NCBI RefSeq assembly: GCF_000018465.1
Contig: NC_010085.1
Span: 120,001 to 152,000 of the forward strand
DNA length: 32,000 nucleotides
Origin: Nitrosopumilus maritimus SCM1
Lineage (GTDB): Archaea > Thermoproteota > Nitrososphaeria > Nitrososphaerales > Nitrosopumilaceae
Direction: 5' to 3'
A program made the translations under genes and the position numbers. The notes under the pieces are model-generated. The model saw only the letters and a list, made by a program, of their open reading frames with translations, had not been told where the DNA came from and made no database searches. Below are positions 7,623 through 30,647 of the stretch, one piece after another; within the stretch, counting starts at the first letter, position 1; each line of letters begins with the position of its first letter.

Positions 7623-7630
7623 GATTCTAA

Positions 7631-12786: not shown

Positions 12787-12794
12787 GTGATTTT

Positions 12795-13049
12795 TTGACA
12801 ATATTGGAATGGTTGCTTGAATGGTTTGAAAATAATTCTGATCTAAAATCAAATGAAATTTTGAGTTCTTTAAATGAAGATTTTCTAATTAAAGGATGGA
12901 TAGACTCATTTACTTTTATAAATTTAATCACTGAAATAGAAGAAAAATATAAAATTTCTTTTAACACTGATGAATTACAAAATGAAAAATTTGCAACTTT
13001 AGATGGTTTAGCTAATATCATTGGAGATAGAATTGAAAAAAACTTATGA
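12795..13049 (+). CDS. Acyl/peptidyl carrier protein (ACP/DltC-like)
   Basis: The frame contains KGWIDSFTFINLITEIEEKY, a D-S phosphopantetheine attachment motif followed by an amphipathic helix. Starting at TTG 12795 gives ~85 aa with the Ser at residue 38, which is typical carrier-protein geometry. The track's ATG at 12711 would overlap the cyclase gene by 76 nt, so the start is uncertain. Confidence 0.7.
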   Translation: MTILEWLLEWFENNSDLKSNEILSSLNEDFLIKGWIDSFTFINLITEIEEKYKISFNTDELQNEKFATLDGLANIIGDRIEKNL

Positions 13050-18000: not shown

Positions 18001-18744
18001 TCATTTCACACTTTCATTAAACTTTGCTTGATTATCAAGAAATTCTTTCTGTTTATGAAAATTAATTTGTATCAAATGTTTATTATTGTTCAAAAAATCT
18101 AGAATCTCTTTTCCAGAAGATAAGATATCTAAATTTTCATATAGCTTTTTAAAAAATTCTAAATCTTCTTTATAATCTAAAGTAAATCTTACATTTTCAT
18201 TTTTTTCAAAATCTTTCAATGGAACAATATCTGTAGTTAAATTAGCTTTTTCTATATATCTTGTTATGACATCTGTATTGATTTCATCAGTGGGTGCAAC
18301 AGAAAATAATTTTTTTATTCCTTTCTCGTTTATTGCTGATGTAAAAAACCCTGTCACAATATCTTTTGGGTGAGTAATCATATCGACTGATTTATTTTTT
18401 AATTCTGAAATTGCTCTTTTTCCAATATCATAACTATATGAAAGATCATCTCCATCAACTAATAATGCATATTGAATTCCAAATTTATTAAAACACTCAT
18501 ACCATCTTTTAATTTTATTTATTAATGGTCCACGAAATATTTCCACATCATTTTTCTTAGCAATATCTTCAAAAATATCATCTTCTTTTGATGTTGATGT
18601 TGCAATAATTACTGGCAATTCTGTTTTTTTTGCTCTTTGAATGACAACGTCTATTGAAGTGAAGTTATTTTTAATTTCCATTATTGCTTTATTTGGTAAT
18701 CTAGTTGAAGAGTTTCTTACTGAAACAATTGCAGCTGAGTTCAT
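18001..18744 (-). CDS. Cytidylyltransferase, CTP_transf_3/SpsF-like (paralogue 2)
   Basis: N-terminal AAIVSVRNSSTRLPNKA matches the same motif as 4078-4836 (ARTGSDRFPKKV). It is the last gene of a four-gene minus-strand operon with 1-4 nt junctions. Confidence 0.7.
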   Translation of the reverse strand: MNSAAIVSVRNSSTRLPNKAIMEIKNNFTSIDVVIQRAKKTELPVIIATSTSKEDDIFEDIAKKNDVEIFRGPLINKIKRWYECFNKFGIQYALLVDGDDLSYSYDIGKRAISELKNKSVDMITHPKDIVTGFFTSAINEKGIKKLFSVAPTDEINTDVITRYIEKANLTTDIVPLKDFEKNENVRFTLDYKEDLEFFKKLYENLDILSSGKEILDFLNNNKHLIQINFHKQKEFLDNQAKFNESVK

Positions 18745-18745
18745 T

Positions 18746-19729
18746 TTAATATTGACTTGATGGGTGTTGTTTGTGATATTCTATATCATGGTCCATCATT
18801 TTTTTAACTAATTCTTTAAAACTTGTTTTTGGCTCCCAATTCAGATTTTTTCTTGCTTTAGATGCATCCCCAACAAGATCTTCTATGTCTGTTGGTCTCA
18901 TTAGAGATTCATCAATTTCGACAAATTCATGCCAATCTCCTAATCCTGCATATTCTGATGCTATATCTAAAAACTCCTTAATTGAATGGGATTTACCAGT
19001 TGCAATGACATAGTTGTCTGGCTCTTTTTGTTGTAACATAAGCCACATGGCTTCAACATAATCTCCTGCAAAACCCCAATCTCTTTTTGCATTAATATTT
19101 CCCAAATGTAATTTATCTAATGTATTAAATTTGATTTTTGATAATGCATAGGTAATTTTTCTTGTAACAAATTCAAGGCCTCTTAAAGGAGATTCATGAT
19201 TAAATAAAATACCACAACATGCAAAAATATTGTAAGCTTCTTTATAATGATTTGTCATGTGGTGACCAAATACTTTTGCTGCTCCATACGGACTTCGTGG
19301 TCTAAATGGGGATTCTTCATTTTTTATTCCAGGATAATTTCCATACATTTCACTAGATGAAGCTTGATAAAATTTTGCATCTGGAACATTTTCTCTAATT
19401 GCTTCTAATACTCTTAAAACACCAAGACCTGTTATATCTGAAGTTAAAACTGGTTGTTGAAAAGAGGCTCCAACAAATGATTGAGCTCCTAAATTGTATA
19501 TCTCATCAGGTTCTGATTGTTTAATTGCAGCTTGAACTGATCCATAATCTGATAAATCCGCTTTTATGTCCGTCACTTTGTGAAAAATCTCCATTTCTTC
19601 TAATCTTTCAAAACATCTATGACTAGTTCTTCTAAACGTGCCAAACACATTGTATCCTTTCTTAAGCAAAAAATCCGCTAGATATGTGCCATCTTGACCC
19701 GTTAGTCCAAAAATCAACGCATTTTTCAA
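18746..19729 (-). CDS. gmd: GDP-mannose 4,6-dehydratase
   Basis: ALIFGLTGQDGTYLADFLLKKGY, RRTS, QASSSEMYG, PRSPYGAAKVF, GILFNHESPLRG..FVTRKIT, LGNINAKRDWGFAGDYVEAMWLMLQQ. All canonical Gmd blocks are present in order. Confidence 0.9.
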   Translation of the reverse strand: MKNALIFGLTGQDGTYLADFLLKKGYNVFGTFRRTSHRCFERLEEMEIFHKVTDIKADLSDYGSVQAAIKQSEPDEIYNLGAQSFVGASFQQPVLTSDITGLGVLRVLEAIRENVPDAKFYQASSSEMYGNYPGIKNEESPFRPRSPYGAAKVFGHHMTNHYKEAYNIFACCGILFNHESPLRGLEFVTRKITYALSKIKFNTLDKLHLGNINAKRDWGFAGDYVEAMWLMLQQKEPDNYVIATGKSHSIKEFLDIASEYAGLGDWHEFVEIDESLMRPTDIEDLVGDASKARKNLNWEPKTSFKELVKKMMDHDIEYHKQHPSSQY

Positions 19730-20547
19730 TTTACTATCAACCCTGCCTCTGTAATACTCTCTAGAAACTGCCTAAAACCTTTTCCACCATTTTCATGGCC
19801 TTTCCATACTTCTATCGCAAATCCCTTATCTTTATGATTATTTAACATTGGAATAATTTTATCAAATTCCATATTTCCCTCTCCATATTGTAACCCTTCT
19901 CCATCTATATCATCTGCATCTGATAAATGGAAATGATCAACTCTTTTTTCAATTATCTTTAATTGATCTATTAGAGAAATTTGTTTAGTATTACAATACA
20001 GTTGTGCGTGACATAAATCATAGCAAACATTTAGACCCAATTTTTCACAATATTTTTCCATATCATTTGCGTCAAGAAAAACATTTGAATGCCATCTTCC
20101 TCCAAAAAACCAAGCATACGGAGGCATATTCTCCATTAAAAAATTCACTTTACTAATATCCAATTTTTCCACTGCATCAAACATACCATTTTTCATTTTT
20201 TCTTTATCTTCTATGCTAAGTTCAGATAATGAATATCCTCCAGGGTGTACAATTATAGATGGTTTGCCTTGAAATTGTTCATTTAATGACACTGTTTTAT
20301 CAATTGCCTTTTGAATCAATTCAATAGTCTTTTCTTGAGAATGAATTTGGTTTGTTTCTCCAAAACTAACTATATCCAACAATTTTCGCTCAAAATATTC
20401 ATAGCAATGAACAATTAATCTTTGATCAAATTTTTGATCTAATTCTAAATTTAAATCACTATCAGAAAAATGAAATTCTAAAATTTTTGGATTGAATGCC
20501 AACATATCATCCAAATCTTGTTTTCTAACTTTCATTCCTAAAATCAT
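19726..20547 (-). CDS. Xylose-isomerase-like TIM-barrel protein (AP_endonuc_2 family, sugar phosphate isomerase/epimerase-like)
   Basis: The size (273 aa) and the spaced conserved His/Glu/Asp blocks (IIVHPGG, LMENM, YDLCHAQL, HFHLSD, AIEVW) fit this fold. It is sandwiched between NeuB2 and Gmd with 4-bp overlaps on both sides. Confidence 0.55.
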   Translation of the reverse strand: MILGMKVRKQDLDDMLAFNPKILEFHFSDSDLNLELDQKFDQRLIVHCYEYFERKLLDIVSFGETNQIHSQEKTIELIQKAIDKTVSLNEQFQGKPSIIVHPGGYSLSELSIEDKEKMKNGMFDAVEKLDISKVNFLMENMPPYAWFFGGRWHSNVFLDANDMEKYCEKLGLNVCYDLCHAQLYCNTKQISLIDQLKIIEKRVDHFHLSDADDIDGEGLQYGEGNMEFDKIIPMLNNHKDKGFAIEVWKGHENGGKGFRQFLESITEAGLIVN

Positions 20548-21593
20548 AAATCATCATCCTGAAGATAGTCATTTCTTTTAATTTCTCTTTTTGATTTTTT
20601 TCCTAAAATTTCATAATAATATTGTGGAGAAAGTCCTTTAGCTGGACCTTTTATTGCTAAATTATTTTCAGAAAATATTTCATCTTTTTTAATATCATTT
20701 TTTGCAGTAATGCTTTTGCCTAAAACCTCTTTCTGTAAAATTTCTCCCCTGGTCATTTTTTTTATGGGCTTTCCTTTTGCTTTTTCAGCTTCCCTGATAT
20801 CTTTTACTAGTTTTTTAAACTCATCTGGTTCTAATGATGCTGCTTGATCTAAACCTTCCATGGTTTTGTCTAATGTGATATGCCTTTCAACAATTATTGC
20901 TCCTAACATAACTGCAGCTAACGTGCTTACAATCCCTGGTTCATGGCCACTGTAACCAATCAAAACTTGAAATTTTTCTTTTAAGAGTGAAATTAGTTCA
21001 AGATTTAATGTTTCAACTGGAGCTGGATATGTGCTATTACAATGAAGTAAAGCAAATTTGGCATTTTTTTCTTTCATAAAAGAAACTGTTTTTTCTATTT
21101 CATTCATGTTTGACATGCCAGTTGATACAATCAATGGTTTACCTGTTTGAATTAGACTTGATATCAAAGGAAAATTTGTCATATCTGCAGATGCTATTTT
21201 GTAAGCTGGAAGATCAAATTTTTCCAAAAATTCCACACTTGGAATATCCCAAGGTGTGCAAAGAAATGTAATGTGTTTTTCTTTGCAGTACTCGGTTAAT
21301 TCTTTATATGCATCATCATCAAATTCAACTTCATTTAAAACATCTAGAAGAATTTCTAATCCTTGACTTTCAATGTTTGGATCTTTTAGAACATCTTCTC
21401 GATAAATATCATTTAGAGATCTTTTCTGAAACTTTACTGCATTTGCCCCCGCATCTACTGCAACATCAATTAATTTTTTAGCAGTTGTTATGTTGCCGTT
21501 ATGATTGATTCCTATTTCTGCAATGATATATGCAGGTTCTTTAGTGCTTATCCTGTCCTTTCCAATTACTATATCATTTTCATGCTCTGCCAT
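20544..21593 (-). CDS. neuB: NeuB-family nonulosonic acid synthase (paralogue 2, canonical type)
   Basis: IIAEIGINHNGNITTAKKLIDVAVDAGANAVKFQKR is the textbook NeuB N-terminus. GYSGHE and VERHITLD carry the metal-binding His residues, and a C-terminal SAF-like domain (SITAKNDIKKDEIF) is present. Confidence 0.88.
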   Translation of the reverse strand: MAEHENDIVIGKDRISTKEPAYIIAEIGINHNGNITTAKKLIDVAVDAGANAVKFQKRSLNDIYREDVLKDPNIESQGLEILLDVLNEVEFDDDAYKELTEYCKEKHITFLCTPWDIPSVEFLEKFDLPAYKIASADMTNFPLISSLIQTGKPLIVSTGMSNMNEIEKTVSFMKEKNAKFALLHCNSTYPAPVETLNLELISLLKEKFQVLIGYSGHEPGIVSTLAAVMLGAIIVERHITLDKTMEGLDQAASLEPDEFKKLVKDIREAEKAKGKPIKKMTRGEILQKEVLGKSITAKNDIKKDEIFSENNLAIKGPAKGLSPQYYYEILGKKSKREIKRNDYLQDDDL

Positions 21594-21683: not shown

Positions 21684-22691
21684 ATGCAAATTTTAGTAGT
21701 GGGTCTAGGCTCTATGGGAAAACGAAGAATTCGTTGTTTACAAAAACTTGGTTTAAAAAATATTATTGGATTTGATCCAAGACAAGATAGACGAGATGAA
21801 TCTGAAAAACTTTACAAAATTTCAACAGTACCCACAATCAATGATGGCTTAAAACTTAATCCCAAATGTATGATCATCTCTACCCCTCCTGATCTTCATT
21901 ACAAATATGCATTAGTTGCAATGAAAAATAAAATTCATTTTTTCACAGAAGTTAATTTGTCTTCAAATGATGTACAAAAAATTATCAAAAAACTAAATGG
22001 GTTGTCTATATTGGGATTACCTTCAAATACTTTAATCTATCATCCATTGATTAAAAAATTAAAAACTCTAATATCAAAAAACCAAATTGGTAAAACACTA
22101 ACCGTTTATCATCATTTTGGACATTATCTGCCTAATTGGCATCCTTGGGAAGATTATAGGGATTTTTATGTTTCAAAGCGACAAACTGGAGCTGCAAGAG
22201 AAATCGTTCCCTTTGAATTAGTTTGGTTATCGTACATTTTTTCAAGTATAAAATCTGTTTATGGAAGTATTCACAAAGTATCCTCTCTAAAAACAGATAT
22301 TGATGATCTCTATCAAGCAATTATTGAATTTTCAAACGGAATTCAATGCATTTTGGTGATTGATGTAATTTCTGACCCAGCTTTTAGTGAAACTAAGATC
22401 ATAGGCGAAAAAGGTGTTATACTATGTAATCATAATGAAGGTATTTTGAAGATTGGAAAATCATCAAAATGGAAAACTACAAAAATTGAATCTGGTGAAG
22501 TTGCAAAAGGATACAAAGGAAATACTCCTTCAGAATCTCTTTATGTTGCAGAAATAAAAAATTTCTTAGATTCGATTAAACAAAAGAAAAAACCAAATTA
22601 TACTTTTGTAGAAGAATTGAGAATTTTAAAAGTTTTAGATGCAATAGAATTGAGTAATAGAAAGTCCAAAAAAATTGTAATTAAAAAATGA
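21684..22691 (+). CDS. Gfo/Idh/MocA-family oxidoreductase (paralogue 2)
   Basis: It has the N-terminal Rossmann motif ILVVGLGSMGKRRIRCL and a layout similar to 4833-5885. The EKP motif is replaced by TEVN. Confidence 0.65.
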   Translation: MQILVVGLGSMGKRRIRCLQKLGLKNIIGFDPRQDRRDESEKLYKISTVPTINDGLKLNPKCMIISTPPDLHYKYALVAMKNKIHFFTEVNLSSNDVQKIIKKLNGLSILGLPSNTLIYHPLIKKLKTLISKNQIGKTLTVYHHFGHYLPNWHPWEDYRDFYVSKRQTGAAREIVPFELVWLSYIFSSIKSVYGSIHKVSSLKTDIDDLYQAIIEFSNGIQCILVIDVISDPAFSETKIIGEKGVILCNHNEGILKIGKSSKWKTTKIESGEVAKGYKGNTPSESLYVAEIKNFLDSIKQKKKPNYTFVEELRILKVLDAIELSNRKSKKIVIKK

Positions 22692-24052
22692 AACCAAATA
22701 TACTGTTTTTAGTTGTAGACTCTTTACGTTCGGATAAATTTTATGGAGAATCTAAAACATCAATTACTCCGAACCTTGATTCTCTTTTAGAAAACGGAGT
22801 TTATTTTTCTCAGGCAATTAGTTCTGTACCTTCAACATCTCCATCAATGGGAAGTATATTCACTGGACTGTTTCCAATAAAAATTGGAATGGGACCTGAA
22901 TCCTATGAAAAATTAAATCCAAATGTTTCTACTTTTATAGAACATTTTAAAAAAAATGGATATTCAACTTTTGCAACTACTTCAGAGATCAATTCATTTT
23001 TGGGATTAACCGAAGATTTTGATCTGACTCTTCAACAGACTTCTCATAATAATTATTTCAGCCTATTTTCTGGATTGGGGGAAAAAATTACTGAAAAATT
23101 ACGTACTATGAAAAAAGAACCTTGGTTCTTTTATATTCATATTAATGATTTACATCAACCCGTTATTGTACCTGAAAAATACTCTGAAGAAAAATTTGGA
23201 ATAACAGATTACGAAAAAATGCTTTCAGCAATAGATTTTTGGATTGGAAAATTTTTTGAACAAATAGATTTTTCAAAAACTCTAGTAGTTTTAACTGCAG
23301 ATCATGGTGAATATGTTCGCTCACTCCAAATTGATGGAAAAATGATCAATCTTGAATCAAGCTCATCTGAAAAGACCTTGTGGAAGTTGGGGAATAAAAT
23401 TCCCAATTTTCTTTATGGGCCAAAAAGAAAATTATCTTCAATATTACAAAAAACTAGAGATAAAAATCGTCAAAAGAAAATTGAAGAACTTGATCTTTCT
23501 GAATATGAAAAAAGAGTATTATCAATGTCTAGAATGAGTTCAGGTTCTCATGTTTTTGATGATGTGTTAAAAGTTCCATTAGTTTTCAAAGGATTCCCGA
23601 TAAAAAACCCAAAACTAATTTCCCAACAAGTTGGCTTGTTGGACATCTTTCCCACTATTACAGATCTTATTGAAATTCCAAAGATTAATGCAAAAATTGA
23701 TGGTAATAGTTTGTATCCATTGATTCAAAATGAAAAAATTGATGAAAAACCATTATTTATTCAAAGTATGCCGTCAATATCTGATGATAATCTAATTCTT
23801 GTTGGAATTAGAACAAACTCTTTCAAATATTTTCGTGAAAAGAACAACAAAAAGAAAAACAAACTTTTTGATTTGGCAAATGATCCCTTAGAAGAAAAAG
23901 ATATCTCTTCTCAAAAACCAGAGATTGTTTTAAAAATGGAAAAAATTCTCCAAGAATATCTGATCACTGAAAATAATTTTTCTCCAGACTCTTTACAGAA
24001 TGATGAAAGAAAGAAAGTTGAAGACGAATTAAAAAAACTGGGATATCTTTAA
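22688..24052 (+). CDS. Alkaline-phosphatase-superfamily ('sulfatase'-family) protein with a Thr nucleophile; NPP/phosphodiesterase- or phospho(no)transferase-like
   Basis: ILFLVVDSLRSD is the metal-binding first strand, and ITPNLDSL follows it. The nucleophile motif reads T50-S-P-S-M-G-S-I-F-T-G-L-F-P where arylsulfatases have C-x-P-x-R-xxxxTG. It looks closer to the NPP motif T-F-P-N-H-Y-S-I-V-T-G-L-Y-P. LTADHGE is also present. I see no N-terminal TM segment or signal peptide. Confidence 0.7.
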   Translation: MKPNILFLVVDSLRSDKFYGESKTSITPNLDSLLENGVYFSQAISSVPSTSPSMGSIFTGLFPIKIGMGPESYEKLNPNVSTFIEHFKKNGYSTFATTSEINSFLGLTEDFDLTLQQTSHNNYFSLFSGLGEKITEKLRTMKKEPWFFYIHINDLHQPVIVPEKYSEEKFGITDYEKMLSAIDFWIGKFFEQIDFSKTLVVLTADHGEYVRSLQIDGKMINLESSSSEKTLWKLGNKIPNFLYGPKRKLSSILQKTRDKNRQKKIEELDLSEYEKRVLSMSRMSSGSHVFDDVLKVPLVFKGFPIKNPKLISQQVGLLDIFPTITDLIEIPKINAKIDGNSLYPLIQNEKIDEKPLFIQSMPSISDDNLILVGIRTNSFKYFREKNNKKKNKLFDLANDPLEEKDISSQKPEIVLKMEKILQEYLITENNFSPDSLQNDERKKVEDELKKLGYL

Positions 24053-24142
24053 ACACTAAATTTTTTCATGTACTAATTTCTATTATATGTGAGATTTATA
24101 CCAAGAATATAATAGGTAGAAATTATTAAAAAAATTACGTTG

Positions 24143-25516
24143 ATGGAAAAAAAGATTGATTTCAAGCCTGATTCTTATTTGATTCGTTCTGGAAACAATT
24201 TTTTGGGAATTTTAAATGATATTAAACGAAGACCAGAAGATGCTGCAAATGAATTGGGTGTTTCTATTGAAGAAATTAACTCAATAATTTCTGGAAAGCA
24301 AAAAATCTCCCCATCTTTAATTGAAAAAGCCGTAAATATCTGGCCAGTTAATGAAAGAGATTTCTATATTGTTTCCGATGATTGTTCTTCTGGAATCTTA
24401 ATTATGACTTCTCAAGATTCAATCAAATCATCTCGCATTATGGAAAGAGCTGGAAAACCATATTATGAATATCGAGATACTGCTATGAGCAAAACTGCTC
24501 CTTTTAGGCCTGAATGGATTTTGGAATTATGCAAAGTTGAAAATAATGACCCTGAAAATCCAAAAGCGCAATGGAATAATGGACATTTCATGCATCAATT
24601 TACATATTTTATCGGAGAAGTAAATTTCTATTACAAAGATCCTGAAGGAAAAAAACATGTCGCAATTATGAATACTGGTGATTCAATGTATATTACTCCA
24701 TTTACTCCTCACACCTTTACTACAAGAGATGGTGCATCTCAAAATGGTTTAATTTTAGCATTAACTTATGGGAGTAAACTTACTGGTGATATTCAGCAAG
24801 AATTGTCGTCATTATCGCTTGATTGTGGAAGTCAATATGCATTAGATTTTACTAATCACGAAAATGCCAGTTTATCATTATTAGAATATTATTTTGAATT
24901 ATCAAATCTGACTAAAGAAAAATTTGCAAAACGAACAAACTTTTCTATGGAAACACTTGCTGATTTCTTTACAAAAAAGAAATTACCAACTTTTGATGAA
25001 CTTAAGATTATTGCTAAAGCTCTAAATGTAAATTCTAGAGATTTAATGCCTAATGATTTGACTGAATCTAAAGTTATTGTAAAAACTCATGATCAATGTG
25101 ATCATTGGAAATACCCTGAATCTGGAAATTATGAATTTTACGAACTTGCATCAACCACCGCTTTGCCTCACTCCAAAGCATTTGAAATTGATGTTTCATC
25201 ATCAGAAGATCTCAATCTTGATCTGAAAGTTGGATTACATCAATATGTGTATAATATTGGCGATTCTGCACTGACAATTAATTGGAATTATGAGAATAAA
25301 ACATATCAGAAATCATTGAATCCTGGCGATTCTGCTTATATCAAACCTTTTGTTCCTCACAATTTCCGTGGAAATGGCAAAATTCTAATTTTGAGAATTG
25401 GTGGAAAAATTTCTGGTGATTCACAACGAGAATTATCATTTGTAGGAAGGGAAAATACTCAACGAGCAATTTCTGAAACAATGCAATGGTTTGATCCAAA
25501 AGGTTCAAACTCTTAA
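24143..25516 (+). CDS. mpnS: Methylphosphonate synthase (non-heme Fe(II) 2-hydroxyethylphosphonate oxygenase, HEPD/HppE family)
   Basis: The architecture is a tandem (HTH-like + cupin) x2. Numbering from ATG 24143, the metal ligands are His148 (24584-24586), Gln152 (24596-24598) and His190 (24710-24712). Phe162 and Ile184 are also present, matching my recollection of the published N. maritimus MPnS structure. It is clustered with ppm, ppd and an Fe-ADH. The track's TTG at 24140 adds one residue and is probably not the start. Confidence 0.9.
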   Translation: MEKKIDFKPDSYLIRSGNNFLGILNDIKRRPEDAANELGVSIEEINSIISGKQKISPSLIEKAVNIWPVNERDFYIVSDDCSSGILIMTSQDSIKSSRIMERAGKPYYEYRDTAMSKTAPFRPEWILELCKVENNDPENPKAQWNNGHFMHQFTYFIGEVNFYYKDPEGKKHVAIMNTGDSMYITPFTPHTFTTRDGASQNGLILALTYGSKLTGDIQQELSSLSLDCGSQYALDFTNHENASLSLLEYYFELSNLTKEKFAKRTNFSMETLADFFTKKKLPTFDELKIIAKALNVNSRDLMPNDLTESKVIVKTHDQCDHWKYPESGNYEFYELASTTALPHSKAFEIDVSSSEDLNLDLKVGLHQYVYNIGDSALTINWNYENKTYQKSLNPGDSAYIKPFVPHNFRGNGKILILRIGGKISGDSQRELSFVGRENTQRAISETMQWFDPKGSNS

Positions 25517-25546
25517 TTTTAATTATAGTTATCTAAATTTCATTTT

Positions 25547-26671
25547 ATGGCAAAAGAAAATTTGATCATCATAATGATTGATGGTGGAAGATTTGATTAT
25601 GGTTTAAATTCAAAAGTTTTTCAGGAAGTAGAAAAAACTTCAGTATTTTTTTCAAATTCTATAACTTATGGGCCCCATACAATTGCTGCAATGCATGCAG
25701 TATTTAGTGGATGTTATGGAACTAGAACAGGAACAAACAGTTATTGGTCTACATATGATTTTAAAAAAGAAAGTTTTGTCACACTCACTGAATATTTGTC
25801 TTCTAATGGATATTTTACATCTGCAGATCTGATTAATGAGTTAGTAGTTCCTAAACAAGGATTTGATGAATATATCGTACATGATGAAATTAATGACGAT
25901 TTAACTTTAAGACACAAAAAAATCTTATCAAAAATTCAAACTAAAAATCAAAAGGGTCAACCATCTTTTCTTTATTTACATTATAGTAAAATTCACACAG
26001 GTATAATGAATGAGGTCTTAAAAAAATATGATAATTTTAGTGACGAATTCTTTGATAATCCTGATCAAAACAAAAATAGATATGAAAAATTATTTATTTC
26101 TGCTGAAAATTATTTAAAAACAATTTTAGAAGAAATTAAAAAACTAGGATTGGATGATAATTCTCTTATTCTAATTATGTCTGATCATGGTGTAAGTGTA
26201 GGTGAAAAATTTGGTGAACGAGCTTATGGAGCATTCTGTTATGATTACACGTTAAAAACAATCACCCATTTCATTTCAAAAAAATTTCAATCAAAAAGAA
26301 TTACACAGCAAGTACGCACAATAGATTTCATGCCTACAATTTTACAATTTTTAAAGATCCCATTAGATAATACCAAAGAACCATTAGACGGGGTTTCTTT
26401 GATGCCCTTGATCAATAACAAAAAAATTGATGAACAATTTGCCTATTCTGAAACAGGTAATCCTCTAAAAGAAAAACAACCTCCAAAAATTCCAAATGTT
26501 ATGTCTATTCGTAACTCAAATTGGAAACTAATATACAATTTACACAATGATTCCAAAGAAATGTACAATTTGCTTGAAGATCCGTTAGAATTAAAAAATT
26601 TGATTGGAACAAATAACGAAATTGAATCCATGCTTTGGAATGAATTACTCAAAATCCAACAATCTAACTAA
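25547..26671 (+). CDS. Alkaline-phosphatase-superfamily ('sulfatase'-family) protein with a Thr nucleophile (paralogue 2)
   Basis: LIIIMIDGGRFDY is the first strand with the metal-binding Asp. The nucleophile-position motif is T45-I-A-A-M-H-A-V-F-S-G, with Thr for Cys and Met for Arg, the same substitutions as in 22688-24052. MSDHGVS is also present. It lies 30 nt downstream of mpnS on the same strand. Confidence 0.65.
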   Translation: MAKENLIIIMIDGGRFDYGLNSKVFQEVEKTSVFFSNSITYGPHTIAAMHAVFSGCYGTRTGTNSYWSTYDFKKESFVTLTEYLSSNGYFTSADLINELVVPKQGFDEYIVHDEINDDLTLRHKKILSKIQTKNQKGQPSFLYLHYSKIHTGIMNEVLKKYDNFSDEFFDNPDQNKNRYEKLFISAENYLKTILEEIKKLGLDDNSLILIMSDHGVSVGEKFGERAYGAFCYDYTLKTITHFISKKFQSKRITQQVRTIDFMPTILQFLKIPLDNTKEPLDGVSLMPLINNKKIDEQFAYSETGNPLKEKQPPKIPNVMSIRNSNWKLIYNLHNDSKEMYNLLEDPLELKNLIGTNNEIESMLWNELLKIQQSN

Positions 26672-26672
26672 T

Positions 26673-27416
26673 TTATTTAAATAATTCTTCAGCTCTGTTT
26701 AGATCCTGTTTTGTATCAATTTCACACCATTTACCTGAAATGAATATTGGTGAAACTTGAATTGAATTATTAATTAATTCTTGAATCATATCTGTTAGAT
26801 ATCCTTTTTCTAAAGAAACTGCATTATGGAATTTTCCCGTATGGTTTTTTTGTAAGTAATCAATTTTTTCTAAAAATACTTTTGTTCCATGTTCACTCAT
26901 TTTTATAATTCCTAGAAATTCCCCAACAATATTTGAAGTACTTTGAATATTCTTTTTAATTTCAACAATGTTATTTTTTTTATCTAACAATACATTCTCT
27001 GCTTCAGAAAATGGATGTTCTGTTCTCCCTTCATAAGATTTTTTCCAGTCTAAATCAATTGCAATAGCAATATCTTTTGTTGTGTTAAGTATTTGATGAA
27101 TAATATTTTCATCAAAAATTATATCCGAATACAAAATTATTACTTCTCCTTGTAAGAAATTTTTAGCCACCATCAAACTTCCTAAAATATCATGCTTTTC
27201 ATTTTCAAAATCTTTGACTATTTTCATTCCTTTATTATCAAATTGATTATGTTTTCCTGAAATAACTATGATTTCTGAAATATTATTTGATTCAAATGCT
27301 TTAATTTGTCTCTCTAAGATAGTTTTTCCATTTACAGGAATTAGTGATTTTGGAATTTCTTTAAATTCTTTCGAAATTCTTTGACCTTTTCCTGCTGCAA
27401 TTATGATTACTTTCAT
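26673..27416 (-). CDS. Nucleotidyltransferase (NTP_transferase fold, LicC/PntC-like; candidate phosphonate cytidylyltransferase)
   Basis: It has the N-terminal MKVIIIAAGKGQRIS (G-x-G-x-R) signature and is 247 aa. It is the last gene of the ppm-ppdA-ppdB operon, with a 7-nt gap. The substrate is inferred from context only. Confidence 0.7.
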   Translation of the reverse strand: MKVIIIAAGKGQRISKEFKEIPKSLIPVNGKTILERQIKAFESNNISEIIVISGKHNQFDNKGMKIVKDFENEKHDILGSLMVAKNFLQGEVIILYSDIIFDENIIHQILNTTKDIAIAIDLDWKKSYEGRTEHPFSEAENVLLDKKNNIVEIKKNIQSTSNIVGEFLGIIKMSEHGTKVFLEKIDYLQKNHTGKFHNAVSLEKGYLTDMIQELINNSIQVSPIFISGKWCEIDTKQDLNRAEELFK

Positions 27417-27423
27417 GAATATT

Positions 27424-27972
27424 CTATAATGATTTTTTTACTCTATCTCTAATATCTTTAGGTTTCCAGATTACTCTTTTGCTTCTTTCTTTACTTGTAG
27501 AAATTTTTACCAACAAAAAGATCGGTCCATTGAGTCTCTTAATTTTTTTCAACATACTTTCTAATTGATTTTTGGATTTAGCTGTAAATGTTGTGTAGTT
27601 ACCAATTTTTGCAATTTTTTCTAAATGAATTTTTGAAGAATTTGTAGGCTGACCTCCAGTTGATTCATGACTACTATTATCAAAAACTACATGGATCAAA
27701 TTTTTTGGTTTCATACTACCAATAGTTACAATTGAACCTAAATTCATCAAAATATTCCCATCTCCATCAAACACAAAAACTCGTTTTTTTGGATTTTTTA
27801 TTGCTAATCCTAATCCTATTGATGATGCCAATCCCATTGACCCGATCATGTAAAAATTTGATTCCTTATCACATACTTCAAACAAATCTCTACTCATAAA
27901 GCCATTAGCTGAAACAATTGGAGAATTTTTTATATTTCTAGCTATGGTTGCCACTGCTTCTTTTCTAATCAT
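27424..27972 (-). CDS. ppd: Phosphonopyruvate decarboxylase, beta subunit (ThDP-binding C-terminal domain, ComE-like)
   Basis: It has the ThDP motif FDGDGNILMNLGS...VVFDNSSHESTGGQ (GDG-x~25-N). It overlaps the alpha-subunit gene by 8 nt and lies directly downstream of ppm. Confidence 0.85.
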   Translation of the reverse strand: MIRKEAVATIARNIKNSPIVSANGFMSRDLFEVCDKESNFYMIGSMGLASSIGLGLAIKNPKKRVFVFDGDGNILMNLGSIVTIGSMKPKNLIHVVFDNSSHESTGGQPTNSSKIHLEKIAKIGNYTTFTAKSKNQLESMLKKIKRLNGPIFLLVKISTSKERSKRVIWKPKDIRDRVKKSL

Positions 27973-28453
27973 GAAATAATCTCCGAATTACTAAGGCACA
28001 AGGTTTGTTGTTTTTCAAATTTTCTATTGCCCAATCACAACAAGATTTCCAATTAGAGTCAGTTAACACCTTTGATTTTAAACCAATAATTTTTAATAAA
28101 TCAGGTTGAATTTTTCCAATTTTTAGATGTTCAGGAGCATCATCTGATAAGTACCCTCTCCATCCTATCAAAAAAATTATTGGAATTTCGTATAATTGAA
28201 CTAATGATGTAATTGTACTTATGGAATTGGCAAATCCAGCATTTTGCATGAATACTAATGATGAACTTTTTGATATAGTAGTACCAGTTGCTATTCCAAT
28301 AGCTTCTTCTTCTCTAGTTGTAATGATGGAATTTTTATTTTTAATAGATTCGTCAATAAAGTGTTTCAGTGTAGAATCTGGGACCCCTATAAAATTTTCA
28401 ATTTTTTTCTTTTTTAGATAATGAAATAATTTTCTTTGATTTTTTTCATTCAA
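27965..28453 (-). CDS. ppd: Phosphonopyruvate decarboxylase, alpha subunit (ThDP pyrimidine-binding N-terminal domain, ComD-like)
   Basis: GVPDSTLKHF and REEEAIGIATG (catalytic Glu) are typical of the N-terminal domain of ThDP decarboxylases. A 4-bp overlap joins it to ppm. Confidence 0.85.
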   Translation of the reverse strand: MNEKNQRKLFHYLKKKKIENFIGVPDSTLKHFIDESIKNKNSIITTREEEAIGIATGTTISKSSSLVFMQNAGFANSISTITSLVQLYEIPIIFLIGWRGYLSDDAPEHLKIGKIQPDLLKIIGLKSKVLTDSNWKSCCDWAIENLKNNKPCALVIRRLFHD

Positions 28454-29349
28454 TTTATGTAACCCAATTTTTTAAGATTTTTTTCTATATCTGTTTCTTG
28501 TTTTTTTATTTCATACATTTCTTGCAGTTTAAAAATTTCTTCCATTGTAGTCATATTTGATTTTATTTGACTGAGACTTTTAGCTTTAGATAGTTGCTCC
28601 AGATGTTCTTTCATTGCTAAATGTGCTACTCGAAGTGATTGATTTGCATAAATTGCTATTCTTATTTTGTGTTTTTCTAATTCATCAATAGTTACATTTG
28701 GATATGATGTTGGAATTGCAATTATGGGTATATCTCCGTCCCACAAATCACAAAATTCAAAAATCTCATCAGGAGTTTTACTCTTTGAATGAATTAAAAT
28801 CGCATCTGCCCCAGCTTTTTTGTATGCATTAGCTCTTTTCAATGCTTCATCTACCCCTAATCCAGCTATTAATGCCTCCACTCTGGCAATGATCATAAAA
28901 TTTTCATTTACTTTAGCATTTTTAGCTGCAATTAATTTTGCAACAAAATCTTTTTCTGATAACAATTGTTGATTACCGTTTTCCAATAAACTGTTTTGTT
29001 TAGGAAAAATCTTATCCTCAATACTAACTGCAGCCACTCCTGCACTTTCATATTTTTTTACCATGTGACTCACATTGCTCGGTCCACCAAACCCTGTATC
29101 GCAATCTGCAATAACTGGAATTGAGCAAGCATCAGTCATATTAGATGCTACAGAAAGAAATTCTGTCATTGTAAGAATACTGGCATCTGGTAATGCATGA
29201 GTTGCAGAAATTGCAAAACTCCCGGCCCAAATTGCATCAAAACCGCTCAATTCCACTAATTTTGCCGACATTGCATCAAATGCACCAGCAACTTTCAAAA
29301 TTGATTTTTGATTAAGTTGAGAGTTTAGTATGTTTGCACCATCATTCAT
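28450..29349 (-). CDS. ppm: Phosphoenolpyruvate phosphomutase (PEP mutase)
   Basis: It belongs to the isocitrate-lyase/PEP-mutase superfamily (ADCDTGFGG). It carries the PepM-specific signature EDK-x5-NS as E111-D-K-I-F-P-K-Q-N-S120 (nt 28990-29019, checked codon by codon). Confidence 0.92.
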   Translation of the reverse strand: MNDGANILNSQLNQKSILKVAGAFDAMSAKLVELSGFDAIWAGSFAISATHALPDASILTMTEFLSVASNMTDACSIPVIADCDTGFGGPSNVSHMVKKYESAGVAAVSIEDKIFPKQNSLLENGNQQLLSEKDFVAKLIAAKNAKVNENFMIIARVEALIAGLGVDEALKRANAYKKAGADAILIHSKSKTPDEIFEFCDLWDGDIPIIAIPTSYPNVTIDELEKHKIRIAIYANQSLRVAHLAMKEHLEQLSKAKSLSQIKSNMTTMEEIFKLQEMYEIKKQETDIEKNLKKLGYIN

Positions 29350-29379
29350 TTCAATCAGTTATGCTTAGCAAATAATTTA

Positions 29380-29395
29380 ATCTATTATAATAGAT
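29380..29395. promoter_or_regulatory. Perfect 16-bp palindrome ATCTATTATAATAGAT in the 62-bp divergent ppm/pdh intergenic region; candidate bidirectional TATA element or operator
   Basis: I verified that the sequence is its own reverse complement. Its TTATAA centre lies about 24 nt upstream of the pdh ATG (29412) and about 38 nt upstream of the ppm ATG (29349), which is compatible with archaeal TATA spacing. There is no experimental support. Confidence 0.35.
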
Positions 29396-29411
29396 CTTTT
29401 TTGTTCTTTAT

Positions 29412-30347
29412 ATGTGGACCATTAAACAGCCTCCAAAAATCATTTTTGGTAAAAATTGTGTATCTGAGTTTATTTTTCCGACAAAGTGTTTAGTTGTAAC
29501 ATCTAAAGGAGCAAAATCTAGAGGATGGCTTGATTATTGTGGGTTAAATGATCAAATGATTTTTAATAATGTTGAACCAAACCCTTCAATCGAAACAACA
29601 GAAAAAATTATTTCAGAATTCCAAAATTCTGATTTTACACATATTGTTGGTATTGGAGGGGGCAGCTCAATGGATGTTGCCAAATATTGTGGTTTTAAAA
29701 TGAATAAACAAAAACTCATGATTCCAACTACTTTTGGAAGCGGTAGTGAAGTAACCCGTATTTCCGTATTGAAGGTTAATGGAAAGAAAAAAAGTTTTCA
29801 TGATGATGGAATCTTTTCTGATACTGCATTAATTGATTCATTTTTTCTTGAAAATTCTACACCTAAAATTTTTAAGAATTCTGTCATAGATGCATGTGCA
29901 CAATGTACTGAAGCATATGATAGTAAATCATCAAATCCATATACGAAGTTTTTTTGTAATCAAGCTTTTGAATTGTTAGAAGAAGGAATTCTTACAAATA
30001 ATAATGAAAAAATTGTATTGGGATCCTTATTTGATGGATTGGGATTTGGAAATTCTTCTACTACTTTAGGACATGCACTGTCCTATGTTTTTTCAAATGA
30101 GGGAATTTCTCATGGTCATGCTTTAGCATTTACTACTTCTGCTGCTCACAAATTTAACAAATCAAAATATTTTGAACGATTTGAAAAACTAGTTTCTTTC
30201 TTAGGTTTTGAACCCATCACATTAGAGCAATCATTAGATCATGCTACAGAAACAATCTTACCTGATAAAAAACACCTTGATAATAACCCAATTCCTGTAT
30301 CGAAAGACGACATCTATAACTTGTTAAAAACAATTATTTCAAAATAA
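29412..30347 (+). CDS. pdh: Iron-containing alcohol dehydrogenase (phosphonoacetaldehyde reductase, making 2-hydroxyethylphosphonate)
   Basis: It has the Fe-ADH motifs GIGGGSSMDVAKY and LGHALSY...ISHGHALA (metal-binding His residues). It is divergent from ppm. At 311 aa it is compact compared with typical ~380-aa family members. Substrate assignment comes from context and analogy with PhpC/FomC. Confidence 0.8.
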   Translation: MWTIKQPPKIIFGKNCVSEFIFPTKCLVVTSKGAKSRGWLDYCGLNDQMIFNNVEPNPSIETTEKIISEFQNSDFTHIVGIGGGSSMDVAKYCGFKMNKQKLMIPTTFGSGSEVTRISVLKVNGKKKSFHDDGIFSDTALIDSFFLENSTPKIFKNSVIDACAQCTEAYDSKSSNPYTKFFCNQAFELLEEGILTNNNEKIVLGSLFDGLGFGNSSTTLGHALSYVFSNEGISHGHALAFTTSAAHKFNKSKYFERFEKLVSFLGFEPITLEQSLDHATETILPDKKHLDNNPIPVSKDDIYNLLKTIISK

Positions 30348-30348
30348 T

Positions 30349-30645
30349 TTACTCATCAAAAATTATAACTTCATTTTGATTTTCGATGACTCTATAATTT
30401 TTTAAATCTCTACCTGGATTAGTTACACAATTTCCTTTAGAAATATCAAATTCCCATCCATGACCCCCACAAGTTAATGTTTGTCCTTTAACAAATCCCA
30501 ATTCTAATGGCCATTTGGCATGAGGACAGATTCCACTAACTGCAAAAATTTGTTCCCCGTTATTAAAAACAATAATTTTTGGACTGACTGATACTTCGAC
30601 TAATTTACCAATAGGAATATCTTGTTTTTTTACAGTGAATTTCAT
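30349..30645 (-). CDS. Rieske [2Fe-2S] domain protein
   Basis: C40-P-H42 ... C59-G-G-H62, with 16 residues between H42 and C59, fits the canonical C-x-H-x15-17-C-x2-H. The protein is 98 aa and starts 2 nt after the stop of the upstream MBL-fold gene. Confidence 0.85.
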   Translation of the reverse strand: MKFTVKKQDIPIGKLVEVSVSPKIIVFNNGEQIFAVSGICPHAKWPLELGFVKGQTLTCGGHGWEFDISKGNCVTNPGRDLKNYRVIENQNEVIIFDE

Positions 30646-30647
30646 AA

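What the first reader, a model, noticed from the sequence alone, without database searches (positions are those of the whole stretch)
22688..30347. Complete methylphosphonate (MPn) biosynthetic cluster embedded in glycan genes
All four steps from PEP to a reduced C1 phosphonate are encoded within 6.2 kb. The enzymes are PEP mutase (EDK-x5-NS signature), a two-subunit ThDP phosphonopyruvate decarboxylase, an Fe-alcohol dehydrogenase (PnAA -> 2-HEP) and an HEPD-family oxygenase with the MPnS-type ligand set. There is no AEP transaminase, so 2-AEP is not the product. As I recall (Metcalf et al., Science 2012), this pathway was discovered in Nitrosopumilus maritimus and proposed as the source of the methylphosphonate whose C-P lyase cleavage releases methane in oxic ocean water. 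The residue numbering here fits that enzyme exactly. The pathway is therefore probably described, but it is the biologically outstanding content of the window. The sequence also shows it is wired into NulO/sugar, nucleotidyltransferase and phosphotransferase-like genes, and as far as I know the final MPn-bearing macromolecule is not defined.
Basis: partly seen in the sequence, partly recalled or inferred. Interest (0 to 1): 0.95.

Follow-up and report, generated by a model that had tools for sequence, protein, structure and literature searches.

The report
Known methylphosphonate gene cluster of Nitrosopumilus

Summary
ORF 24143-25516(+) is 457/457 identical to PDB 6B9S/6B9T 'Methylphosphonate synthase'. 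Every cluster protein is an exact NCBI entry of N. maritimus SCM1, so the window is the type locus. PEP mutase carries EDKIFPKQNS. The phosphonopyruvate decarboxylase really is two subunits: the split is conserved in 9 Nitrosopumilaceae-type loci at 60-68% identity. An Fe-ADH follows, and MPnS has H148/Q152/H190 plus the discriminating F162/I184. All four steps lie within 6,205 bp. No class-V (PhnW/AepZ-type) aminotransferase is present among the 33 ORFs scanned.

The 2-His-1-Gln ligand set alone does not separate MPnS from class-II HEPD. Ppm, Ppd and Pdh all score below their NCBIfam equivalog cut-offs, so those three steps rest on motifs and context. A non-PhnW class-III aminotransferase lies 4.7 kb upstream of the cluster's first gene.

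Three additions concern attachment. The cluster nucleotidyltransferase is PntC/LicC-like and is fused to Ppm in six other MPnS loci. Both 'sulfatases' have a conserved Thr where formylglycine should be. The core gene order is conserved across Nitrosopumilaceae. Attachment chemistry is inferred only. Novelty: already known. Interest is low.

The parts
24143..25516 (+). mpnS, methylphosphonate synthase (2-HEP + O2 -> methylphosphonate + CO2/HCO3-). NCBI ABX12053 / UniProt A9A1T2.
   Evidence: It is 457/457 identical to PDB 6B9S/6B9T and NCBI names it methylphosphonate synthase [N. maritimus]. H148, Q152, F162, I184 and H190 are all present and match the mpnS criteria of PMC9381506 Table S2.
28450..29349 (-). 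ppm/pepM, PEP phosphomutase (PEP <-> phosphonopyruvate). ABX12056.
   Evidence: EDKIFPKQNS lies at residues 111-120. PF13714 scores 197 bits. The best PDB hits are PEP phosphomutases 5UNC (E 2e-74) and 1M1B (E 2.5e-60). TIGR02320 scores 295.3 bits, below the 319.55 cut-off.
27965..28453 (-). ppd alpha-like subunit (ThDP pyrimidine-binding N-domain) of phosphonopyruvate decarboxylase. WP_187146547.
   Evidence: PF02776 matches. It covers TIGR03297 positions 2-152 of 360 at 105.7 bits, better than ComD at 96.2. The split from the C-domain ORF is conserved in 9 Nitrosopumilaceae-type loci and 2 Chloroflexi/SAR202 loci, while 10 other loci have a fused gene. It overlaps ppm by 4 nt and the ppd beta-like ORF by 8 nt.
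27424..27972 (-). ppd beta-like subunit (ThDP diphosphate-binding C-domain). WP_148680008.
   Evidence: PF02775 matches. It covers TIGR03297 positions 171-353 of 360 at 183.2 bits, better than ComE at 163.1. The GDG motif starts at residue 70.
29412..30347 (+). pdh/phpC-like group-III Fe-alcohol dehydrogenase, the inferred phosphonoacetaldehyde reductase (PnAA -> 2-HEP). ABX12057.
   Evidence: PF00465 and PF25137 match. D160, H221 and H234 align with the Fe-ADH metal ligands, and Q164 replaces the fourth. Homologues are found in 21 of 29 MPnS loci. TIGR03405 scores only 77 bits against a 423.7 cut-off. It is transcribed divergently from ppm across a 62-bp spacer.
26673..27416 (-). PntC/LicC-like nucleotidyltransferase, last gene of the ppm-ppdAB operon. 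Inferred to form a CMP-phosphonate (CMP-MPn or CMP-2-HEP). ABX12055.
   Evidence: PF12804 matches. The best PDB hit is 6PD1, the T. denticola PntC-AEPT fusion (E 5e-12), followed further down by LicC 1JYK. Homologues occur in 18 of 29 MPnS loci. It is fused to Ppm in L021, L022, L023, L024, L027 and L029. One RefSeq name is 'phosphocholine cytidylyltransferase family protein'.
25547..26671 (+). Sulfatase-fold (alkaline-phosphatase superfamily) protein with a Thr nucleophile, immediately downstream of mpnS. Inferred phosphonyl transferase or phosphonate-ester hydrolase. ABX12054.
   Evidence: PF00884 matches. T45 aligns with the formylglycine Cys of sulfatase 6HR5, giving T45-I-A-A-M49 in place of C-x-P/A-x-R. 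T45 is invariant in 11 orthologues. Identity is 55-67% in the 11 archaeal loci that have it, 10 of them directly flanking mpnS. No TM segment is predicted.
22688..24052 (+). Second sulfatase-fold protein with a Thr nucleophile, upstream of mpnS. ABX12052.
   Evidence: PF00884 matches. T50-S-P-S-M54 aligns with the sulfatase S/C-x-P-x-R motif. The Thr is conserved in all paralogues and orthologues, and the metal-ligand DHGE motif is present. It overlaps the upstream Gfo/Idh/MocA gene by 4 nt.
21684..22691 (+). Gfo/Idh/MocA-family sugar oxidoreductase, translationally coupled to the first sulfatase-like gene. Probably the first gene of the + strand mpnS transcription unit.
   Evidence: GFO_IDH_MocA Pfam domains match. 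It has a weak match to the archaeal UDP-GlcNAc 3-dehydrogenase model. Its stop overlaps the next start by 4 nt.
18001..21593 (-). Adjacent nonulosonic-acid/sugar genes: NeuB-family synthase 20544-21593, TIM-barrel protein 19726-20547, GDP-mannose 4,6-dehydratase 18746-19729 and CMP-sugar-type cytidylyltransferase 18001-18744. These are the candidate source of the acceptor glycan.
   Evidence: Pfam and NCBIfam hits support each assignment. NeuB homologues lie within 10 kb of mpnS in 8 other loci, including a Methanosarcinales MAG and an Elusimicrobiota MAG.

Best explanation
The region is the methylphosphonate (MPn) biosynthetic locus of Nitrosopumilus maritimus SCM1.

Pathway:
- PEP mutase (28450-29349) isomerises PEP to phosphonopyruvate.
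- A two-subunit ThDP decarboxylase (27965-28453 plus 27424-27972) pulls that unfavourable equilibrium forward by making phosphonoacetaldehyde.
- A compact Fe-type alcohol dehydrogenase (29412-30347) reduces phosphonoacetaldehyde to 2-hydroxyethylphosphonate (2-HEP).
- MPnS (24143-25516), a non-haem Fe(II) oxygenase with a 2-His-1-Gln site, cleaves the C1-C2 bond of 2-HEP with O2 to give MPn plus CO2/HCO3-.

What is shown and what is inferred: step 4 is shown, because the sequence is identical to the crystallised, biochemically used enzyme, and the organism is reported to make an MPn adduct. Steps 1-3 are inferred from motifs, homology and conserved synteny.

Downstream steps, all inferred: the PntC/LicC-like nucleotidyltransferase at the end of the ppm operon activates the phosphonate as a CMP conjugate. 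One or both soluble Thr-nucleophile alkaline-phosphatase-superfamily ('sulfatase') proteins flanking mpnS then transfer or trim the methylphosphonyl group on a sugar or glycan, possibly one built by the neighbouring nonulosonic-acid genes. The result would be the cell-associated MPn ester.

The genes form three units: + strand 21684->26671, - strand 29349->26673, and + strand 29412->30347.
For: - Identity of MPnS: one search gives 457/457 identity to 6B9S/6B9T 'Methylphosphonate synthase'. Searches show all proteins are exact N. maritimus SCM1 entries.
- Diagnostic residues: searches show the pepM (EDK..NS) and mpnS (H148, Q152, F162, I184, H190) residues are met. One search shows the Ppd GDG motif.
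- Family hits: searches give Pfam and NCBIfam hits for each enzyme, with Ppd models scoring above the sulfopyruvate decarboxylase models. One search shows the closest solved structures to Ppm are PEP mutases.
- Real two-subunit Ppd: one search shows the split is conserved in 9 loci at 60-68% identity.
- Conserved synteny: one search shows the order sulf1-mpnS-sulf2-<NTase-<ppdB-<ppdA-<ppm-pdh> conserved in L004, L005, L007, L008, L010 and L017, inverted in L009, and without an upstream sulf1 in L002/L003. Ppm (23), Ppd (21-22) and ADH (21) homologues occur in the 29 MPnS loci.
- Nucleotidyltransferase: searches show it is closest to the phosphonate cytidylyltransferase PntC and is fused to Ppm in six MPnS loci, matching the general logic of Rice et al. 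2019 (PMC6697681).
- 'Sulfatases': searches show a conserved Thr at the formylglycine position of both proteins.
- Literature: PMC12619172 states that N. maritimus MpnS converts 2-HEP to MPn, and itself used that enzyme to make MPn from PEP in a four-enzyme cascade. PMC8942020, PMC9381506 and bioRxiv 10.1101/2020.11.04.368217 report the MPn adduct or exopolysaccharide and N. maritimus as a confirmed producer.
Against: Nothing contradicts the core pathway. The caveats are:
- Ppm (295.3 vs 319.55 bits), Ppd (183.2 + 105.7 vs 312.5) and Pdh (77 vs 423.7) all fall below their NCBIfam equivalog cut-offs.
- RefSeq names these proteins only generically.
- I found no paper in the library reporting assays of the N. 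maritimus Ppm, Ppd or Pdh. The cascade paper used bacterial enzymes for those three steps.
- Pdh has Gln instead of the second metal-binding His.
- For the downstream steps there is no direct evidence at all. No LicD-type or CDP-alcohol-type transferase was detected in the window. The sulfatase-like proteins could be hydrolases. They are restricted to archaeal loci, 12 of the 29 MPnS loci.
- The primary papers (Metcalf 2012, Born 2017) could not be read here.
Confidence: 0.95

Rival explanations
1. The oxygenase is an HEPD-type enzyme that makes hydroxymethylphosphonate plus formate, so the cluster does not make MPn.
For: The second-best PDB hit is a class-II HEPD (6B9R, E 3e-85), which shares the 2-His-1-Gln ligand set. 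One syntenic relative (L017) carries the HEPD-type Y162/G184.
Against: The protein is sequence-identical to the enzyme deposited as methylphosphonate synthase. That enzyme is described and used as converting 2-HEP to MPn (PMC12619172). F162 and I184, the residues used to separate mpnS from hepD, are present.
Confidence: 0.01
2. The two small ThDP ORFs are a frameshifted, dead phosphonopyruvate decarboxylase, so the cluster is a decayed remnant.
For: Neither ORF has an ABX accession, so neither was a CDS in the original GenBank annotation. In 10 other loci Ppd is one polypeptide of about 375-477 aa. The two ORFs overlap by 8 nt in different frames.
Against: The break falls exactly in the inter-domain linker (profile positions 152 and 171 of 360). 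The same split is kept in 9 Nitrosopumilaceae-type loci at only 60-68% protein identity, and arose independently in 2 Chloroflexi/SAR202 loci. Both ORFs are full length with their own start codons. The related sulfopyruvate decarboxylase is modelled by NCBIfam as separate alpha and beta subunits (TIGR03845 and TIGR03846). The organism is reported to produce MPn.
Confidence: 0.02
3. The moiety that is nucleotide-activated and attached is 2-HEP, or a mixture of 2-HEP and MPn, rather than MPn alone. MPnS would then act on only part of the flux.
For: Both MPn and 2-HEP esters are reported on marine high-molecular-weight polysaccharides (PMC9381506 introduction). The nucleotidyltransferase sits in the ppm-ppd operon, not next to mpnS. 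Ppm-NTase fusions occur generally in phosphonate clusters that do not make MPn.
Against: The isolated product from N. maritimus is described as a methylphosphonate adduct (PMC8942020). mpnS is flanked on both sides by the candidate transfer or trimming enzymes, and that arrangement is conserved.
Confidence: 0.15
4. The two sulfatase-fold proteins are hydrolases, either true sulfatases or phosphonate/phosphate ester hydrolases acting on the glycan or recycling MPn esters. They would not be phosphonyl transferases, and the real transferase would lie elsewhere.
For: All sequence hits are to sulfatases, choline sulfatases, PehA and phosphonate monoester hydrolases. The proteins are soluble with no membrane anchor, unlike the EptA/LtaS-type transferases I know from the literature. 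They are absent from the bacterial MPnS loci.
Against: Both lack the C/S-x-P-x-R formylglycine motif and have a conserved Thr instead. From general knowledge, that argues against sulfate-ester hydrolysis and for phosphoryl or phosphonyl chemistry. The second one is as conserved as MPnS itself and lies next to it in 10 of the 11 archaeal loci that have it. No other candidate phosphonyl transferase (LicD, CDP-alcohol transferase) was detected in the window.
Confidence: 0.4

Closest known systems
Methylphosphonate synthase locus of Nitrosopumilus maritimus SCM1 (Metcalf et al. 2012, Science 337:1104; structure in Born et al. 2017, Science 358:1336, PDB 6B9S/6B9T)
   Same: It is the same locus. 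MPnS is 100% identical to the PDB chain, and all neighbouring proteins are exact SCM1 entries on a 1,645,259-bp contig.
   Different: Nothing differs in sequence. This analysis adds only annotation detail: the real two-subunit Ppd that was missing from the original CDS list, the Thr-nucleophile 'sulfatases', and the PntC-like nucleotidyltransferase.
Class-II 2-hydroxyethylphosphonate dioxygenase (Streptomyces albus HEPD, PDB 6B9R) and class-I HEPD/PhpD (3G7D)
   Same: The fold is the same (tandem cupin plus HTH), the substrate 2-HEP is the same, and class II shares the 2-His-1-Gln iron site (6B9R E 3e-85).
   Different: HEPD yields hydroxymethylphosphonate plus formate. The hepD criteria are I/Y162 and E/G184, whereas the window protein has F162 and I184. 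Class-I PhpD is only distantly related (E 1e-4).
AEP-type phosphonyl tailoring pathways (Ppm-Ppd-AEPT-PntC; Rice et al. 2019, PMC6697681; B. fragilis aepXYZ)
   Same: Both use Ppm plus Ppd as the thermodynamic pair and have a LicC/PntC-like nucleotidyltransferase in the cluster, within a cell-surface glycan context. PDB 6PD1 (PntC) is the best structural relative of the window's nucleotidyltransferase.
   Different: There is no class-V AEP transaminase here, and an ADH plus MPnS are present instead. The Glu104 that contacts the AEP amine in Tde-PntC aligns with Tyr96 here. No LicD-type transferase was found.
Sulfopyruvate decarboxylase ComD/ComE (coenzyme M biosynthesis)
   Same: It has the same two-subunit ThDP architecture. 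The window ORFs score 96 and 163 bits on the ComD and ComE models.
   Different: The scores are lower than on the Ppd model and below the ComDE cut-offs. The genes are translationally coupled to a PEP mutase bearing EDK-x5-NS.
Formylglycine-dependent type I sulfatases, and phosphonate monoester hydrolases of the alkaline phosphatase superfamily
   Same: They share the PF00884 fold, the N-terminal metal-binding Asp and the DHG motif. Distant hits include phosphonate monoester hydrolases 4UPK and 2W8S.
   Different: The C/S-x-P-x-R motif is replaced by T-x-x-x-M in both proteins, with the Thr conserved.

Membership tests
Methylphosphonate synthase (MPnS) | Iron ligands H148, Q152 and H190 (2-His-1-Gln) | tested here: met
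   One search gives the residues. One search gives the criteria (Table S2 of PMC9381506).
Methylphosphonate synthase (MPnS) | Second-sphere residues F162 and I/V184, which distinguish MPnS from HEPD | tested here: met
   F162 and I184 are present. They are conserved in 25 of 29 homologues.
Methylphosphonate synthase (MPnS) | Sequence identity to the experimentally characterised enzyme | tested here: met
   457/457 identical to 6B9S/6B9T. It is ABX12053/A9A1T2, named methylphosphonate synthase.
Methylphosphonate synthase (MPnS) | Conversion of 2-HEP plus O2 to MPn plus CO2/HCO3- | not testable with these tools
   Reported for this protein in the literature (PMC12619172). The primary papers are not held.
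PEP phosphomutase (PepM/Ppm) | Active-site motif EDK-x5-NS (E114, D115, K116, N122 and S123 in Mytilus numbering) | tested here: met
   EDKIFPKQNS at residues 111-120. The criterion is quoted.
PEP phosphomutase (PepM/Ppm) | Score above the NCBIfam TIGR02320 equivalog cut-off | tested here: not met
   295.3 bits against 319.55. It is still the best-scoring model, ahead of phosphonopyruvate hydrolase at 254.8. Pfam PF13714 is passed easily (197 vs 31.5 bits).
PEP phosphomutase (PepM/Ppm) | Adjacent Ppd (or MPnS) gene within 5 kb | tested here: met
   The ppm stop overlaps the ppdA start by 4 nt.
Phosphonopyruvate decarboxylase (Ppd/AepY, TIGR03297) | ThDP-binding N- and C-domains with the GDG motif | tested here: met
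   PF02776 and PF02775 match. GDG starts at residue 70 of the C-domain subunit. The aepY criterion G259-D260-G261 is given.
Phosphonopyruvate decarboxylase (Ppd/AepY, TIGR03297) | Score above the equivalog cut-off (312.5 bits) | tested here: inconclusive
   The model describes a single chain. The two subunits score 105.7 and 183.2 bits (sum 288.9) and together cover positions 2-353 of 360.
Phosphonoacetaldehyde reductase (PhpC/FomC-type group III ADH) | Fe-ADH fold with metal ligands D199, H268 and H282 (PhpC numbering) | tested here: met
   PF00465 matches. D160, H221 and H234 align with the ligands of 1VHD and 9JX4. The criteria are given.
Phosphonoacetaldehyde reductase (PhpC/FomC-type group III ADH) | Score above the TIGR03405 (Phn_Fe-ADH) cut-off | tested here: not met
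   77 bits against 423.7. The assignment therefore rests on context: homologues occur in 21 of 29 MPnS loci.
Phosphonyl-tailoring cytidylyltransferase (PntC) / LicC family | LicC-like NTP-transferase fold, gene inside a ppm cluster, and fusions to Ppm in relatives | tested here: met
   PF12804 matches. The best PDB hit is 6PD1 and LicC 1JYK is also hit. Fusions occur in 6 loci. The general pattern is described in PMC6697681.
Phosphonyl-tailoring cytidylyltransferase (PntC) / LicC family | CTP-dependent activation of a phosphonate (here MPn or 2-HEP) | not testable with these tools
The amine-contacting Glu104 of Tde-PntC aligns with Tyr96, which is only suggestive of a non-amino substrate.
Formylglycine-dependent sulfatase (type I) | C/S-x-P-x-R formylglycine motif at the nucleophile position | tested here: not met
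   The first protein has T50-S-P-S-M54 and the second has T45-I-A-A-M49. The Thr is conserved in orthologues.
2-AEP biosynthetic pathway | PhnW/AepZ-type (class V) AEP transaminase in the cluster | tested here: not met
   No PF00266 hit was found in any of the 33 ORFs scanned. The class-III enzyme at 16667-17995 best matches GSA-aminomutase-like models.

The most novel reading that the evidence does not exclude
The PntC-like nucleotidyltransferase and the two conserved, soluble, Thr-nucleophile sulfatase-fold proteins flanking mpnS may form a previously uncharacterised phosphonyl-transfer route. In this route CMP-MPn would give a covalent methylphosphonyl-Thr enzyme, which would then pass the group to a sugar hydroxyl. 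The result would be MPn attached to a nonulosonic-acid-containing archaeal surface glycan. This would define both the missing attachment enzymes and the MPn-bearing macromolecule that feeds oceanic methane production.
Probability: 0.25. Interest if true: 0.55.

Novelty: already known. Interest (0 to 1): 0.15.

Why it matters
The locus matters biologically. It is the genetic basis of methylphosphonate synthesis in marine Thaumarchaeota. C-P lyase cleavage of MPn is the accepted explanation for methane supersaturation in oxic ocean water. All of that has been published, down to a crystal structure of this exact protein, so re-finding it adds no knowledge.

The residual value lies in the unresolved attachment step. 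The annotation details gathered here name concrete candidate enzymes for biochemical tests. These details are the real two-subunit Ppd, the PntC-like nucleotidyltransferase with Tyr in place of the amine-binding Glu, the Thr-nucleophile 'sulfatases', and the recurrent NeuB neighbourhood.

Tried and rejected
- Primary papers: I tried to read Metcalf 2012 (PMC3466329) and Born 2017 (PMC5901744). Neither is held, so statements about them rest on secondary papers and my own knowledge.
- Genome scan: the genome-contig scan with MPnS returned 29 relatives but not N. maritimus itself (best 71%). I established the origin by exact protein look-up instead.
- Rfam: a gathering-threshold scan of the whole window found nothing.
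- Pseudogene Ppd: I considered that the split Ppd is a frameshift pseudogene and rejected this on conservation of the split.
- Hidden AEP transaminase: I considered that the class-III aminotransferase at 16667-17995 might be one. I rejected this because it best matches GSA-aminomutase-like models, lies 4.7 kb upstream of the cluster's first gene among sugar genes, and has no homologue in the other MPnS loci.
- ComDE: I considered sulfopyruvate decarboxylase for the ThDP ORFs. I rejected this on lower scores and coupling to Ppm.
- True sulfatases: I considered this for the PF00884 proteins and rejected it because the formylglycine motif is absent.
- Searches not run: I did not run the large protein-database searches or structure predictions. 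The main question was settled by exact identity, and the remaining question (transferase versus hydrolase) would not be decided by a fold match.

Full report
**Observation.**
- On the + strand, a Gfo/Idh/MocA oxidoreductase (21684-22691) overlaps by 4 nt a sulfatase-family gene (22688-24052). The oxygenase follows after 90 bp (24143-25516), and a second sulfatase-family gene after 30 bp (25547-26671).
- Converging on these from the - strand is a tightly coupled operon: PEP mutase (28450-29349), a ThDP N-domain ORF (27965-28453, 4-nt overlap), a ThDP C-domain ORF (27424-27972, 8-nt overlap) and a nucleotidyltransferase (26673-27416, 7-nt gap).
- An Fe-alcohol dehydrogenase (29412-30347) is transcribed divergently from ppm across 62 bp.
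- The four pathway enzymes span 6,205 bp. Pfam supports every family assignment.

**Identity of the locus.** The oxygenase is 457/457 identical to PDB chains 6B9S/6B9T, deposited as 'Methylphosphonate synthase'. The next hit is a class-II HEPD (6B9R, E 3e-85), with HppE and class-I HEPD far behind. Exact-sequence look-ups show that all cluster proteins are NCBI entries of Nitrosopumilus maritimus SCM1 (ABX12051-12059 or WP_ entries) on a 1,645,259-bp contig, and NCBI names the oxygenase methylphosphonate synthase. The window is therefore the type MPn locus.

Papers held in the library agree with this:
- PMC12619172 states that Metcalf et al. identified MpnS in N. maritimus and that it cleaves 2-HEP to MPn and CO2. 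The authors used this enzyme (CP000866) to make MPn from PEP in a four-enzyme cascade.
- The Acker et al. preprint lists N. maritimus as one of two experimentally confirmed planktonic phosphonate producers.
- PMC9381506 recalls that the SCM1 neighbourhood and biophysical evidence point to an MPn-modified exopolysaccharide.
- The two primary papers were not available to me.

**Checks of the individual claims.**
- *MPnS.* H148, Q152 and H190 are present. So are F162 and I184, the residues that the curated criteria of PMC9381506 Table S2 use to separate mpnS (F162, I/V184) from hepD (I/Y162, E/G184).
- *Ppm.* EDKIFPKQNS lies at residues 111-120. The closest solved structures are PEP mutases (5UNC E 2e-74, 1M1B E 2.5e-60). 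The TIGR02320 score (295.3) falls just under its cut-off (319.55), which explains the generic RefSeq name.
- *Ppd.* The two ORFs cover profile positions 2-152 and 171-353 of the 360-position Ppd model and beat the sulfopyruvate decarboxylase models. GDG is present. Neither ORF has an ABX accession, so they were not CDSs in the original GenBank record, which raises the pseudogene question. The same split is kept in nine Nitrosopumilaceae-type loci at 60-68% identity and in two Chloroflexi/SAR202 loci, while ten other loci carry a fused gene. It is a real two-subunit enzyme.
- *Pdh.* The fold is Fe-ADH and D160, H221 and H234 are in place. Gln164 replaces the second metal-binding His, a substitution shared by the archaeal and Chloroflexi MPnS-linked ADHs. 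It scores far below the phosphonate-ADH equivalog (77 vs 423.7 bits), so its role rests on context: homologues occur in 21 of 29 MPnS loci.
- *No AEP transaminase.* None of the 33 ORFs scanned hits the class-V aminotransferase family. A class-III GSA-aminomutase-like enzyme (16667-17995) and a PseC/DegT enzyme (1900-2988) sit among the sugar genes.

**Surroundings and relatives.** The rest of the window is a low-GC (23-33%) glycan island. It holds two NeuB-family synthases, two CMP-sugar-type cytidylyltransferases, a PseB-like dehydratase, an FdtA-like isomerase, a formyltransferase, a GDP-mannose dehydratase and two GT-B-like transferases. It also holds an acyl-carrier module consisting of a PPTase, an HMGL-like aldolase, an AMP-ligase, a cyclase, a carrier protein and an N-acetyltransferase-like protein.

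A scan of species-representative genomes found 29 MPnS homologues at 47-71% identity. In L004, L005, L007, L008, L010 and L017 the order sulfatase1-mpnS-sulfatase2-<NTase-<ppdB-<ppdA-<ppm-pdh> is conserved; L009 has it inverted, and L002/L003 lack an upstream sulfatase1. Clustering of all neighbouring ORFs shows a near-universal core of MPnS, Ppm, Ppd, ADH and the nucleotidyltransferase. The sulfatase-fold proteins are restricted to archaeal loci (12 of the 29), and NeuB homologues lie within about 10 kb of mpnS in 8 other loci by tblastn (9 by ORF clustering).

**How attachment probably works (inferred).** The nucleotidyltransferase's best solved relative is the Treponema denticola PntC-AEPT fusion (6PD1, E 5e-12), with LicC (1JYK) also hit. 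In six MPnS loci a homologous domain is fused to Ppm, at either end. This fits the finding of Rice et al. that nucleotidyltransferases accompany over two-thirds of phosphonate clusters and are fused to about 60% of Ppm enzymes. Glu104, one of two carboxylates contacting the AEP amine in Tde-PntC, aligns with Tyr96 here. That Tyr is conserved in most MPnS-linked homologues, which is compatible with a substrate lacking an amine (MPn or 2-HEP).

Both 'sulfatases' have Thr at the formylglycine position and Met in place of the motif Arg: T50-S-P-S-M54 and T45-I-A-A-M49. The Thr is invariant in orthologues and the metal-binding D and DHG motifs are intact. Neither has a hydrophobic segment. From general knowledge of the alkaline phosphatase superfamily, Thr or Ser nucleophiles mark phosphoryl-transfer enzymes (NPP, EptA, LtaS) rather than sulfatases. 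I therefore favour a CMP-phosphonate donor and a covalent phosphonyl-Thr intermediate, but a hydrolytic role is nearly as likely. No LicD- or CDP-alcohol-type transferase was seen.

**Verdict.** The novelty class is 'already known', since this is the published type locus itself. A specialist would not be surprised by any part of the core finding. The candidate attachment enzymes named here make it somewhat more testable, but none of this was demonstrated.

Noticed in passing
L017:2943-4274 (Marine Group I SAG AC-665-F20, JACASX010000009): This relative keeps the full Nitrosopumilaceae gene order, but its MPnS homologue has Y162/G184, the HEPD-type second-sphere residues. It may therefore make hydroxymethylphosphonate rather than MPn. 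Three Chloroflexi/SAR202 loci (L019, L021, L024) have the mixed Y162/I184.
   Followed up: partly
window 30349-31970 (- strand): An MBL-fold protein (440 aa, HxHxDH motif, C-terminal SCP2-like domain) has as its best solved relative a non-haem diiron monooxygenase (8A90, E 5.6e-9). Next to it is a 98-aa Rieske ferredoxin. Homologues of the MBL protein lie beside mpnS clusters in L001 and L007, in a different position relative to mpnS. This may be an oxygenase pair functionally linked to the phosphonate or glycan pathway.
   Followed up: partly
window 29412-30347: The pathway ADH is compact (311 aa against about 370-390 for typical Fe-ADHs). It has Gln164 at the position of the second metal-binding His. 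The Gln is conserved in archaeal and Chloroflexi MPnS-linked ADHs, while four bacterial loci keep His.
   Followed up: partly
window 27424-28453 and 20544-21593: The two ppd subunit ORFs and one NeuB-family gene carry only RefSeq WP_ accessions and no ABX accession. They were therefore not annotated as CDSs in the original GenBank record of the genome. RefSeq names the ppd subunits only generically as ThDP proteins.
   Followed up: yes
window 7275-13818: A carrier-protein acylation module sits inside the nonulosonic-acid island: a 4'-phosphopantetheinyl transferase, an HMGL-like aldolase, an AMP-binding ligase, a cyclase-family protein, a small PP-binding protein and an aminoglycoside-N-acetyltransferase-like protein. 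It suggests an unusual N-acyl decoration of an amino sugar.
   Followed up: no
L021, L022, L023, L024, L027, L029; also L013-L016, L018, L020: In six MPnS loci Ppm is fused to a nucleotidyltransferase domain, either N- or C-terminally. In the Methanosarcinales and Nanoarchaeota MAG loci Ppm carries an unexplained N-terminal extension of about 145 aa.
   Followed up: partly
L003 (JANWIZ010000035, labelled Patescibacteria group bacterium): Its gene order and per-gene identities to the window are almost the same as those of the thaumarchaeal contig L002. The contig is probably mis-binned.
   Followed up: no
window 1-32000: GC content is 23-33% across the window with no compositional break at the phosphonate cluster. 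From memory the genome average is about 34%, so the whole glycan and phosphonate island is AT-rich. There are no Rfam matches.
   Followed up: no
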